64,000 bases of DNA from NCBI RefSeq assembly GCF_988242995.1, contig NZ_OZ547043.1. One strand, given 5' to 3'. Both the position numbers and the translations under genes were made by a program. The notes under the pieces were generated by a model. That model had not been told where the DNA came from. It saw only the letters and a list, made by a program, of their open reading frames with translations, and ran no database searches. Positions within the stretch are counted from its first letter, which is position 1. The number at the start of each line of letters is the position of its first letter. Shown here one piece after another: positions 7,128 to 9,814 of this stretch.

Positions 7128-8336
7128 TCAGGCGTCGCGTTCCAGCAAACGACGCGCGGCGCGTTTCTGGCTAAACTGCCAACCCAGCGCAAGGAAAGTG
7201 AAGATGCCAACAATACCCAGCATCATCCACGGAAGCTCTGGCTGGTGCGCCGATTTGCCCAGGTCAAACAGCCAGCCGCCACCGATATAACCAATAGCGC
7301 CGCCAATCGCCAGACCCAGACGGCTAAACCCCATATAGCTGCCGCGAGCTCTTGCGTCTGCCAGCGAAGCACTTAAGGTTTCACGCGCAGGCTCGGCAAT
7401 GATCGACCCGATATAAAACAGACAAATCAGGGTGAAAAGTTGTTGCAGACCGCTGACCATGCCCACCGGCATCATGCTTAATGACATTATCAACAGCCCA
7501 GCCATCAACCGGTGTTCCAGACGAAAATGCTTTTCACTCCAGCGGGCGATAGGATAGAGCAACGTTAACGACAGACACGCTTCAATGGCATACATCCATT
7601 TAACGGCAGAGGGCGCGCCAGCCACGTCGTTGACCATAATTGGCAGCATCAGCATCACTTGTACAGCCAGCATGTAGTAACCCGCCAGCGTCAGGACATA
7701 GGTGACAAAACGCTTGTCGCGCATCACGCGGGTCATGCCTTCGCGAACGGGCGTGCGTACAGTGGAGAGCTTCCATGCCGGTAACAACCACGCATTGAAC
7801 GCTGCACACAGCACAAACAAAACTGCCCCTGTGGCGCAGACCAGGCGAAAGTCGTATTGCAACAGCCAGCTCCCCAACAATGCGCCAATGACCGCACCGG
7901 CACTGTCCTGCATCATCAACAGCGAGAAAAAACGACCACGCTGCTGTGGACGGATTAATTTCACCACCAGCGCCGAACGCGGCGGATCAAACAACGTGCC
8001 GCCGAGTCCCGAAAGCAGGCATGAAAACCACAGTAGCCACGGTTCGTGGGCGATACCCATTGTGGCGAATCCGGCGGCACGCATCAGCATACCGGTAACA
8101 ATCATCGGTTTGGCACCAAAGCGGTCGGCAATTGCTCCGCCGAAAATACCCAGACCTTGCTGAATAAACTGGCGTAGGCCGAGGGCAATACCGACCATGA
8201 CGGCGGCCCAGCCCATTTGATCAACGAAGCGGATAGAGATCAGCGGGAAGACAACAAAGAACCCCAGCACGACCAGCATATTATCGATGAGCAGGAAATA
8301 TTTACCCAGGTTCCTGGCCTGCGACACGCGGGACAT
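7128..8336 (-). CDS. mdtH: MFS multidrug efflux transporter MdtH
   Basis: Track ORF 7128..8366 trimmed to ATG (plus 8334-8336, [27 protein letters not shown]), 402 aa as recalled for MdtH. Confidence 0.9.
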
Positions 8337-8571
8337 TTCCCCTCCCGGGAAATAAAAGATGAGCACTTTCTATTCTGCATTGCCGCTAAGACTTTTCCCA
8401 TCACTTCGGGGACAATATTTTTTTATCAAAACGTCGCTTTGATAGAGAGTTTTTATCAAATATGTGAATAATGCAGAAAATGGCATTCTGGACTTTTCAC
8501 AGGGTCTGGTTGCGCAGGTATAGTAATACTTACAGCGTATTAAAGACGTTACGGGAAGGAGTAGGTATAGA

Positions 8572-9814
<1,243 letters not shown>

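What the first reader, a model, noticed from the sequence alone, without database searches (positions are those of the whole stretch)
8419..8460. Direct and inverted repeats in the mdtH-rimJ divergent promoter region
The motif TTTTTATCAAA occurs twice, at 8419-8430 and 8450-8460. Between the two copies lies the inverted repeat TATCAAA-n7-TTTGATA (8424-8444). This arrangement suggests a dimeric regulator site shared by the divergently transcribed mdtH and rimJ. I do not recognise it as a known operator.
Basis: seen in the sequence. Interest (0 to 1): 0.2.

Follow-up and report, generated by a model that had tools for sequence, protein, structure and literature searches.

The report
Conserved upstream element of mdtH promoter
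The repeats are real and sit on a short A/T-rich stretch that has stayed almost unchanged across enteric bacteria, just upstream of the weak promoter of the drug-efflux gene mdtH; it most likely helps and restrains that promoter, but the protein that reads it is not identified.

Summary
TTTTTATCAAA occurs at 8420-8430 and 8450-8460, and TATCAAA-N7-TTTGATA at 8424-8444, in the E. coli mdtH-rimJ intergenic region.

Published start-site mapping puts the mdtH start at 8364 and the rimJ start at 8532. The repeats are therefore untranscribed DNA, at -56 to -96 of mdtH and -72 to -112 of rimJ.

In 75 distinct Enterobacteriaceae intergenic regions, the block GACAATATTTTTTTATCAAAA (8411-8431) is nearly invariant and lies 40 or 41 nt from the mdtH -10 block in the 71 sequences where that block could be scored. 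The ATC...GAT core of the inverted repeat is kept in at least 69/75, with a variable spacer of fixed length. The exact 11-nt direct repeat is confined to Escherichia and one Citrobacter.

On the mdtH strand the block matches the distal half of the UP-element consensus in 10 of 11 positions, at -58 to -48, upstream of a poor core promoter (TGGGAA / CAGAAT). A published screen reports that hns knock-down raises mdtH promoter activity, with binding evidence.

Best reading: an A/T-rich upstream module of the mdtH promoter, UP-like and a target of H-NS. An operator for an unassigned regulator remains a serious rival. No known operator matches. Interest is modest.

The parts
8420..8430 (+). Direct repeat copy 1, TTTTTATCAAA. 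It lies inside conserved block 1, at -56 to -66 of the mdtH start site and -112 to -102 of the rimJ start site.
8450..8460 (+). Direct repeat copy 2, TTTTTATCAAA, at -86 to -96 of mdtH and -82 to -72 of rimJ. It is exact only in Escherichia and C. sedlakii. Elsewhere it reads TTTTCATC(G)AAA, but ATC and AAA are kept in at least 72 of 75.
8424..8444 (.). Inverted repeat TATCAAA-N7-TTTGATA, centred on 8434 (-70 of mdtH, -98 of rimJ). It is perfect in Escherichia and Enterobacter (16 of 80 loci). The core ATC-N13-GAT is kept in at least 69 of 75. The spacer 8432-8438 varies in sequence but not in length.
8409..8431 (.). Conserved block 1, G.GACAATATTTTTTTATCAAAA. A8412, A8415-T8423, T8426 and C8427 are invariant in 75 of 75. 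On the minus strand, AAAAATATTGT (8412-8422, -58 to -48 of mdtH) matches the distal UP consensus AAAWWTWTTTT in 10 of 11 positions.
8411..8427 (.). Dyad A, GACAA-N7-TTATC. It is a perfect palindrome, GATAATATTTTTTTATC, in locus L086, whose MdtH is 80% identical.
8441..8457 (.). Dyad B, GATAG-N7-TTATC, 30 bp from dyad A. GAT and ATC are kept in at least 69 of 75. It is absent in Intestinirhabdus, Kluyvera and L086.
8364..8364 (-). mdtH transcription start site (a G on the minus strand; 28-nt 5' UTR).
   Evidence: Kim et al. 2012, PMC3415461, supplementary file 2; mapped onto the window
8372..8377 (-). Inferred mdtH -10 hexamer CAGAAT, inside the conserved block TATTCTGC.
   Evidence: the hexamer assignment is my inference from the start site
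8395..8400 (-). Inferred mdtH -35 hexamer TGGGAA (3 of 6 to TTGACA, 17-bp spacer), inside the conserved block TTTTCCCA.
   Evidence: inference
8496..8524 (+). rimJ sigma-70 promoter, TTCACA-17-TATAGT. Both hexamers lie in invariant blocks.
8532..8532 (+). rimJ transcription start site (40-nt 5' UTR).
   Evidence: PMC3415461 supplementary file 2

Best explanation
The repeats are the E. coli form of a conserved, untranscribed, A/T-rich region of about 50 bp (8409-8460) that belongs mainly to the mdtH promoter.

Shown. mdtH starts at 8364 from a core promoter with poor hexamers. The block GACAATATTTTTTTATCAAAA sits at -47 to -67 of that start. It is nearly invariant across Enterobacteriaceae and keeps a fixed distance to the mdtH -10.

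Inferred. On the mdtH strand the A7 run plus TATTGT acts as a distal UP-element subsite, docking the C-terminal domain of an RNA polymerase alpha subunit and compensating for the weak -35 and -10.

Reported by others at promoter resolution, placed on this stretch by me. The same A/T-rich stretch, with four GATA-like half-sites in alternating orientation, is where H-NS binds to hold mdtH expression low.

On this reading the perfect 11-nt direct repeat and the perfect 7-nt inverted repeat are by-products of these reiterated T-run + ATC + A-run units. They are not the two arms of one dedicated dimer site.
For: Start sites. mdtH at 1124577(-) with a 28-nt UTR, and rimJ at 1124745(+) with a 40-nt UTR (Kim et al. 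2012), map to 8364 and 8532. The repeats are therefore upstream DNA for both genes.

Conservation. In 75 distinct intergenic regions, 8412-8429 is invariant or nearly so, while flanking columns are close to random (mean column identity is 54% in the 34-species alignment).

Spacing. Block 1 to the mdtH -10 block is 40 nt (58 sequences) or 41 nt (13 sequences); in the other 4 the -10 pattern was not matched. It is 41 nt in L086. The distance to the rimJ -10 is 51, 66 and 122 nt in L065, L076 and L086.

UP match. AAAAATATTGT at 8412-8422 on the minus strand matches AAAWWTWTTTT with 1 mismatch. Only 15 such matches exist in 128 kb of strand. The consensus and subsite positions are taken from PMC2412878.

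Weak core promoter. CAGAAT and TGGGAA, with low mdtH expression (baseMean about 45, against 326 for rimJ).

H-NS. hns knock-down raises mdtH promoter activity (FC 1.93, -logP 10), with genomic SELEX and ChIP-seq binding evidence (PMC10505187 Data 6).

Composition. 8411-8461 is 74.5% A+T, in the top 0.5% of 51-nt windows.

Natural loss of mdtH. In Kluyvera, which lacks mdtH, the AATATT of block 1 and the -35 block become variable.
Against: An UP element does not explain invariance beyond about -60 (TTTTGATA, -60 to -67). It also does not explain the discrete conserved GAT/ATC triplets with a variable spacer of fixed length, which look like a sequence-specific operator.

The proximal UP subsite is absent: -46 to -38 is G/C-rich and variable.

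The match of the repeats to the H-NS motif tCGATAAATT is only 7 of 10, and matches of that quality occur 7.5 times per kb in the window. H-NS binding is known only at promoter resolution.

Kluyvera has no mdtH, yet TTTTTTATCACAATGC is conserved among its five species, so part of the element may serve rimJ or the new neighbour gene.

Only one start-site data set could be read. The hexamer assignments are my inference.
Confidence: 0.45

Rival explanations
1. The element is the operator of a sequence-specific transcription factor not yet assigned to this locus. Four half-sites of the type GAYA/TATC (8411-14 forward, 8424-27 reverse, 8441-44 forward, 8454-57 reverse) form two 17-bp dyads 30 bp apart. 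A dimer of dimers or a tetramer (LysR-like or other) would bind them and control mdtH from about -55 and -85.
For: GAC, ATC, GAT and ATC are each kept in at least 69 of 75 sequences. The spacers 8432-8438 and 8448-8449 vary in sequence, but their lengths are fixed.

Dyad A is a perfect palindrome, GATAATATTTTTTTATC, in L086.

Both dyads fit the loose T-N11-A frame of LysR-type sites. That frame is quoted from my own knowledge.

In five distant lineages mdtH orthologues are divergently paired with one conserved LysR-type regulator, so dedicated control of mdtH by a regulator has precedent.
Against: No cognate factor is known. The LysR-type regulator of the distant loci has no NCBIfam equivalog (best score 84.8 bits against a cut-off of 303.8), and their short intergenic regions show no copy of block 1.

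The centre of dyad A is as invariant as its arms, which is unusual for a helix-turn-helix dimer site.

Dyad B is dispensable in Intestinirhabdus, Kluyvera and L086.

No specific factor other than H-NS appears for mdtH in the held part of the perturbation table.

The 63-bp region has no second copy in E. coli genomes.
Confidence: 0.3
2. This is the first reader's version: one dimeric regulator binds TATCAAA-N7-TTTGATA and coordinately controls both mdtH and rimJ.
For: The dyad lies between the two start sites, 168 bp apart, at -70 and -98.

The total distance from block 1 to the rimJ -10 is 106-109 nt in 73 of 75 sequences.

A T-run + ATCA unit survives upstream of rimJ in Kluyvera, which lacks mdtH.
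Against: The rimJ core promoter is strong (10 of 12 to consensus). It persists with the right arm deleted (Kluyvera, Intestinirhabdus) or at altered distance (L076, L086).

The arms are unequally conserved: A8444 is kept in only 47 of 75 and T8438 in 46 of 75.

The only rimJ responses listed are to ulaR (weak DAP-seq signal; a single-target regulator by genomic SELEX) and to argR (no binding evidence).
Confidence: 0.1
3. The element is the binding site of LsrR, the AI-2 quorum-sensing repressor, which was reported to repress mdtH by binding its promoter.
For: A gel shift of an mdtH promoter fragment by LsrR, with a rise in mdtH mRNA in an lsrR mutant (PMC7597812).

The short motifs given for LsrR are AACAAT and AAAACT. 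The intergenic region has GACAAT at 8411-8416 and an exact AAAACT on the minus strand at 8448-8453.
Against: The shift needed 1-8 micromolar protein, and the site was not mapped. In a sister paper from work with the same methods, the probe primers span the whole intergenic region.

The 6-bp motifs carry almost no information, and LsrR is said to prefer any AT-rich DNA.

The lsr system is not present in all the genera that keep the block invariant. This last point is from my own knowledge and was not tested here.
Confidence: 0.07
4. The repeats are chance products of low-complexity A/T-rich intergenic DNA and have no function of their own.
For: The perfect 11-mer duplication exists only in Escherichia and C. 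sedlakii. It arose from one C-to-T change and loss of one base.

Inverted repeat arms of 7 nt or more occur in 13% of shuffles.

Two strains carry an insertion sequence inside the element without obvious harm: IS1 near 8445 and ISApl1 near 8425.
Against: Near-invariance of 18-21 bp in 75 sequences, while neighbouring columns are saturated with change. Fixed spacing.
Confidence: 0.05

Closest known systems
UP element (alpha C-terminal domain docking site upstream of the -35, as at rrnB P1; consensus AAAWWTWTTTTNNNAAA)
   Same: A/T-rich with an A-run on the non-template strand. It matches the distal subsite in 10 of 11 positions at -58 to -48, one base off the canonical -57 to -47. It lies upstream of a promoter with weak hexamers and keeps a fixed distance to the core promoter.
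   Different: There is no proximal subsite. Conservation extends to -67 and recurs at about -75 to -96. The effect on transcription is untested.
H-NS high-affinity or nucleation sites (tCGATAAATT; proU, bgl)
   Same: A/T-rich with central T-A steps and a reiterated GATAA core. hns knock-down raises mdtH promoter activity, with genomic SELEX and ChIP-seq evidence.
   Different: Each copy matches the motif in only 7 of 10 positions, which is common by chance. Invariance of this degree across genera is not typical of H-NS targets. The H-NS site has not been mapped within the region.
LysR-type regulator binding sites (interrupted dyads in a T-N11-A frame, usually next to a divergent regulator gene)
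   Same: Two interrupted dyads, GAY-N11-ATC, upstream of the regulated promoter. mdtH orthologues in five distant lineages have a divergent LysR-type regulator.
   Different: E. coli has rimJ, not a regulator gene, on the other side. No orthologue of that regulator is evident. No sequence is shared with those intergenic regions. The T-N11-A frame is too loose to be diagnostic.
FNR/CRP-family sites (TTGAT-N4-ATCAA) and IHF sites (WATCAANNNNTTR)
   Same: They share the words TTGAT, ATCAA and TATCAA.
   Different: Here the arms face the other way (ATCAA-N9-TTGAT) or are 11 nt apart. The IHF TTR element is TCG in E. coli and is not conserved in other genera.

Membership tests
UP element | Lies between about -38 and -60, directly upstream of the -35 of a mapped promoter | tested here: met
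   The A7 run plus TATTGT spans -60 to -48 of the mdtH start site at 8364.
UP element | Matches the consensus AAAWWTWTTTTNNNAAA (distal and proximal subsites) | tested here: inconclusive
   The distal part matches in 10 of 11 positions. The proximal part (-46 to -38: CCCGAAGTG) does not match and is not conserved.
UP element | Stimulates transcription through the alpha C-terminal domain | not testable with these tools
   Needs reporter or in vitro transcription assays.
H-NS target | H-NS binds in vivo or in vitro, and the promoter is derepressed without H-NS | tested here: met
   From the literature only, at promoter resolution: PMC10505187 Data 6 lists hns to mdtH with FC 1.93, genomic SELEX 6.8% and a ChIP-seq peak.
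H-NS target | Contains a close match to tCGATAAATT | tested here: inconclusive
   TTGATAAAAA occurs twice on the minus strand, matching in 7 of 10 positions. Matches of that quality occur 7.5 times per kb in the window.
Operator of a dimeric transcription factor | Dyad symmetry, with conserved arms and a spacer of fixed length | tested here: met
   ATC (8425-27) and GAT (8441-43) are kept in at least 69 of 75 sequences. The spacer varies in sequence, with no indels.
Operator of a dimeric transcription factor | An identified cognate protein, or further sites forming a regulon | not tested
FNR/CRP-family site | TTGAT-N4-ATCAA (or TGTGA-N6-TCACA) in that orientation and spacing | tested here: not met
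   The arrangement here is ATCAA-N9-TTGAT and TTGAT-N11-ATCAA.
IHF site | WATCAANNNNTTR, with the TTR element conserved | tested here: not met
   E. coli has TATCAAAACGTCG. The TTR position is variable in other genera.
LysR-type regulator site | A divergently encoded LysR-type regulator next to the target gene | tested here: not met
   In E. coli and 75 relatives the neighbour is rimJ. The feature is met only in distant mdtH loci L084, L085, L088, L089 and L090.
LsrR operator | LsrR protects a defined site that contains its box sequences | not testable with these tools
   Only an unmapped gel shift at 1-8 micromolar protein is available. The boxes are 6-9 bp A/T words.
Structured RNA | Is transcribed and matches an RNA family | tested here: not met
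   The element lies upstream of both start sites. There is no Rfam match at E-value up to 1 in 8200-8700.

The most novel reading that the evidence does not exclude
The four alternating GAYA/TATC half-sites (two 17-bp dyads 30 bp apart, 8411-8457) are the operator of a so far unassigned sequence-specific regulator. That regulator switches the otherwise nearly silent MdtH efflux pump on or off in Enterobacteriaceae. It would replace the dedicated divergent LysR-type regulator that accompanies mdtH in other proteobacteria.
Probability: 0.25. Interest if true: 0.45.

Novelty: new member of a known kind. Interest (0 to 1): 0.3.

Why it matters
MdtH is a little-studied efflux pump that confers quinolone resistance when overexpressed, and little is established about how it is controlled. 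This work gives a mapped promoter, a nearly invariant 21-bp upstream block at a fixed distance, and a short list of candidate readers: the RNA polymerase alpha subunit, H-NS, LsrR, or an unknown factor. Together these provide a concrete and cheap target for deletion and pull-down experiments. If a specific regulator binds here, it would explain when the pump is expressed. If not, the locus is a clean example of a deeply conserved UP-like element on a weak promoter. In either case the finding is local, not a new principle.

Tried and rejected
Literature.
- No paper holds both mdtH and rimJ in its text.
- QseB does not bind the fragment.
- The ChIP-exo studies of uncharacterized factors and of LysR-type factors gave no binding entry for either gene, and IPOD-HR gave none.
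- The differential RNA-seq paper is not held.
- The Cappable-seq supplement did not contain the coordinates, so only one start-site data set supports the promoter map.
- K. pneumoniae start sites were not in the held part of the Kim et al. files.

Known motifs, compared by eye or script and rejected:
- FNR/CRP, IHF, Fis (no G-N13-C frame), Fur (arm spacing off by 2), DnaA box (7 of 9), and AraC half-site (no TAGC).
- OxyR (dyad period 30, not 22), NrdR box (10 of 16), ARG box, marbox, and LacI-family palindrome (3 extra bases, centre not conserved).
- HipB (spacing 13, not 10) and sigma-28, sigma-32, sigma-E and sigma-54 promoters.
- Most of these consensus sequences were recalled from memory. 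Those comparisons are leads, not tests.
- Lrp consensus: 12 of 15 at 8411-8425, but 84 matches of that quality occur in the window.
- UlaR at rimJ: a weak DAP-seq signal, and a single-target regulator by genomic SELEX.

Other readings.
- A promoter inside the repeats: the scan found only a weak plus-strand candidate, TAGAGA-18-AATAAT, which is not conserved.
- RNA element: no Rfam match.
- Paralogous copies in E. coli: none.

Limits of the searches.
- Deeper orthologues through the first protein search were all at least 81% identical. The representative search was needed to reach distant loci.
- A genome-wide scan for the degenerate motif was not feasible.

Full report
**What is there.** The window is E. 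coli. The stretch 8300-8620 is present in 5425 of 5426 complete genomes and is annotated there as mdtH and rimJ. Window coordinate plus 1,116,990 gives the coordinate in K-12 NC_000913.3. The 235-bp intergenic region differs from K-12 at one base, 8488. mdtH is on the minus strand with its ATG at 8336; rimJ is on the plus strand with its ATG at 8572.

The sequence holds TTTTTATCAAA at 8420-8430 and at 8450-8460. It also holds the perfect inverted repeat TATCAAA-ACGTCGC-TTTGATA at 8424-8444, and a further pairing of TTTGATA (8438-8444) with TATCAAA (8454-8460).

In 2000 dinucleotide-preserving shuffles of the intergenic region, an 11-nt direct repeat within 60 nt appears in 0.25%. Arms of 7 nt or more appear in 13%. 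Three copies of one 7-mer within 40 bp appear in 0.1%. The direct repeat is unusual; the inverted repeat taken alone is not.

**Where it lies relative to transcription.**
- Kim et al. 2012 (PMC3415461, supplementary file 2) mapped one mdtH start site with a 28-nt leader and one rimJ start site with a 40-nt leader.
- Their flanking sequences place these at 8364 (minus strand) and 8532 (plus strand).
- The rimJ start fits the promoter found by the scan, TTCACA (8496-8501), 17 bp, TATAGT (8519-8524), 10 of 12 to consensus.
- For mdtH, I infer the hexamers from the start site as CAGAAT (8372-8377) and TGGGAA (8395-8400). This is a weak core promoter, in line with low mdtH read counts in an unrelated RNA-seq table (baseMean about 45, against 326 for rimJ).
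- The repeats are therefore not transcribed. Copy 1 is at -56 to -66 of mdtH and -112 to -102 of rimJ. The inverted repeat centre is at -70 and -98. Copy 2 is at -86 to -96 and -82 to -72.
- There is no Rfam match in 8200-8700.

**Conservation.** One scan of reference genomes with RimJ returned 80 Enterobacteriaceae loci. mdtH is the divergent neighbour in all but the five Kluyvera species. I aligned 34 species and then 75 distinct intergenic regions. The conserved blocks are:
- the mdtH ribosome-binding region;
- TATTCTGC, the mdtH -10;
- TTTTCCCA, the mdtH -35;
- G.GACAATATTTTTTTATCAAAA (8409-8431), here called block 1;
- T.GAT.GAG (8439-8447);
- TTTT.ATC(G)AAA (8450-8460);
- AAAATGG;
- TTTTCACAG, the rimJ -35;
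- AGGTATAGTAA, the rimJ -10.

Within block 1, A8412, A8415-T8423, T8426 and C8427 are identical in 75 of 75 sequences. In the right arm of the inverted repeat, G8441, A8442 and T8443 are kept in 69, 74 and 74 sequences, whereas A8444 is kept in 47 and T8438 in 46. The spacer 8432-8438 is close to random in sequence but has no length change. In copy 2, T8454 is kept in only 10 sequences (C in 57), and 69 sequences carry an extra G or A after 8457.

So the perfect 11-nt repeat is confined to Escherichia and C. sedlakii. The perfect inverted repeat occurs in Escherichia and Enterobacter (16 of 80 loci). Underneath both lies a conserved frame of four triplets in alternating orientation: GAC 8411-13, ATC 8425-27, GAT 8441-43 and ATC 8455-57. 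These make two 17-bp dyads, GAYAN-N7-TNATC, 30 bp apart.

**Which gene it serves.**
- Block 1 lies 40 nt (58 sequences) or 41 nt (13 sequences) from the mdtH -10 block. In the other 4 sequences my pattern did not find that block.
- Its distance to the rimJ -10 is 106-109 nt in 73 of 75 sequences.
- That distance is 51 nt in Intestinirhabdus, where the right arm and copy 2 are deleted, and 66 nt in Escherichia sp. ESNIH1.
- A locus whose MdtH is 80% identical (L086) keeps only block 1, as the perfect palindrome GATAATATTTTTTTATC.
- In L086 the block is 41 nt from the column aligned with the mdtH -10 and 122 nt from the rimJ -10. The right arm and the second copy are absent.
- Kluyvera has lost mdtH and grxB; a TatA/E-like ORF and yceB lie upstream instead.
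- In Kluyvera the AATATT of block 1 and the -35 block vary among the five species, and about 44 bp containing the right arm and copy 2 are missing. TTTTTTATCACAATGC is still conserved, and the rimJ core promoter is intact.

Together this ties block 1 to the mdtH side. It shows that the right arm and the second copy are dispensable in several lineages, and that rimJ does not need them. A residual role of the T-run + ATCA unit for rimJ, or for the new neighbour gene, is not excluded.

**How it most likely works.** On the mdtH strand, the block reads TTTTGATAAAAAAATATTGTC. AAAAATATTGT at -58 to -48 matches the distal part of the UP-element consensus AAAWWTWTTTTNNNAAA in 10 of 11 positions. The consensus and the subsite centres near -52 and -42 come from PMC2412878. 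Only 15 matches of that quality occur in the 128 kb of both strands of the window. One falling within two bases of the canonical position of a given promoter therefore has a chance of roughly 6 in 10,000 (my estimate, made after seeing the match). The proximal subsite is absent.

Separately, the perturbation screen of PMC10505187 lists hns knock-down as raising mdtH promoter activity (FC 1.93, -logP 10). It adds genomic SELEX and ChIP-seq binding evidence and marks this as not a previously known interaction. The stretch 8411-8461 is 74.5% A+T, in the top 0.5% of 51-nt windows. Both repeat copies read TTGATAAAAA on the minus strand, 7 of 10 to the H-NS motif tCGATAAATT (PMC2094087). Matches of that quality are too common to count as evidence (7.5 per kb).

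I therefore read the region as an A/T-rich upstream module of a weak promoter. An UP-like docking site would raise its activity, and the same A/T-rich DNA would let H-NS keep it low. The location, spacing, conservation and start sites are shown. The alpha-subunit contact, and the placing of H-NS on this particular stretch, are inferred.

**The main rival.** The pattern of discrete conserved triplets, a variable spacer of fixed length, a palindromic form in L086, and invariance beyond -60 is what an operator of a sequence-specific factor looks like. An UP element does not explain it. No tested consensus fits (FNR/CRP, IHF, Fis, Fur, LacI family, OxyR and others; see tried and rejected). Most of those consensus sequences came from memory.

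LsrR shifts the mdtH promoter fragment at 1-8 micromolar and represses mdtH in an avian pathogenic strain (PMC7597812). The site is unmapped and the LsrR boxes are 6-9 bp A/T words. QseB does not bind.

One lead came from distant relatives. In five GC-rich loci, mdtH orthologues are divergently paired with one conserved LysR-type regulator (MdtH 53-66% identical; one passes the NCBIfam MdtH cut-off, 473.9 against 469). Their intergenic regions are 83-91 bp. That regulator has no NCBIfam equivalog, so no E. coli orthologue is evident. Those intergenic regions show no copy of block 1. The Enterobacteriaceae arrangement thus lacks the dedicated regulator gene. Whether another factor has taken over is open.

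**Comparison with what is known, and verdict.** The element works most like an UP element combined with an H-NS target. It meets the positional and distal-consensus features of the former and the published-response feature of the latter. The functional features could not be tested here.

It is not an FNR/CRP, IHF or RNA element. RefSeq annotates no feature under it, and it has no second copy in E. coli. I found no description of it in the searchable literature.

It is a new, specific instance of a familiar kind of promoter-upstream element. It is of modest interest, and it is a well-defined target for anyone studying how mdtH is controlled.

Noticed in passing
L084 525-1409, L090 526-1410, L085 531-1412, L088 784-1417, L089 upstream of 761: In five GC-rich (58-68% G+C) loci, mdtH orthologues (53-66% identical to E. 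coli MdtH) are divergently paired with one conserved LysR-type regulator. The regulators are 54-84% identical to one another in the N-terminal domain, and the intergenic regions are only 83-91 bp. The regulator has no NCBIfam equivalog. Enterobacteriaceae have rimJ in that position instead.
   Followed up: partly
L034, L044, L045, L061, L070 (Kluyvera), about 970-1500: Kluyvera species lack mdtH and grxB upstream of rimJ. A 69-aa TatA/E-like ORF and yceB lie there. A decayed remnant of the mdtH promoter region remains, with TTTTTTATCACAATGC still conserved.
   Followed up: partly
window about 8445 (L082, strain WCHEC000837) and about 8425 (L083, NZ_OX442407.1): Two E. coli strains carry an insertion sequence inside the element. 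IS1 lies between the inverted repeat and copy 2, and ISApl1 lies at the T-run/ATC junction. Each separates mdtH from part of its upstream region.
   Followed up: partly
window 8390-8400 and 8491-8501: GACTTTTCCCA and GACTTTTCACA form a 10-of-11 direct repeat 101 bp apart. Each covers the -35 region of one of the two divergent promoters, though on the same strand, and both cores (TTTTCCCA, TTTTCACA) are invariant across genera.
   Followed up: no
window 8334-8353, minus strand (mdtH leader): The highly conserved mdtH leader can form the hairpin AUUUCCCG-GGAGG-GGAAAU, which holds the Shine-Dalgarno sequence in its loop and pairs the first two bases of the AUG. The energy is -9.7 kcal/mol, but the z-score against shuffles is 0.09, so it is not supported by energy alone.
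   Followed up: partly
window 8463-8478 / 8486-8501 and 8373-8381 / 8470-8478: Two further inverted repeats. TGTGAATAATGCAGAA / TTCTGGACTTTTCACA has 16-nt arms, 81% complementary, and overlaps the rimJ -35. TTCTGCATT / AATGCAGAA has 9-nt arms and links the mdtH -10 region with a site 88 nt away. The left arm of the first is poorly conserved.
   Followed up: no
window 8516-8523 and 8563-8570: AGGTATAG occurs twice: once over the rimJ -10 and once immediately before the rimJ start codon.
   Followed up: no
L065 (Intestinirhabdus alba) and L076 (Escherichia sp. ESNIH1), upstream of rimJ: Independent deletions of about 56 bp and 41 bp lie between block 1 and the rimJ -10. In L076 the deletion removes the rimJ -35 block and brings the third ATC unit to the -35 position.
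   Followed up: partly
window about 8635 (K-12 1124848 in NC_000913.2 coordinates): Kim et al. list a weak plus-strand start site (3 reads) inside rimJ, which they assign to yceH.
   Followed up: no
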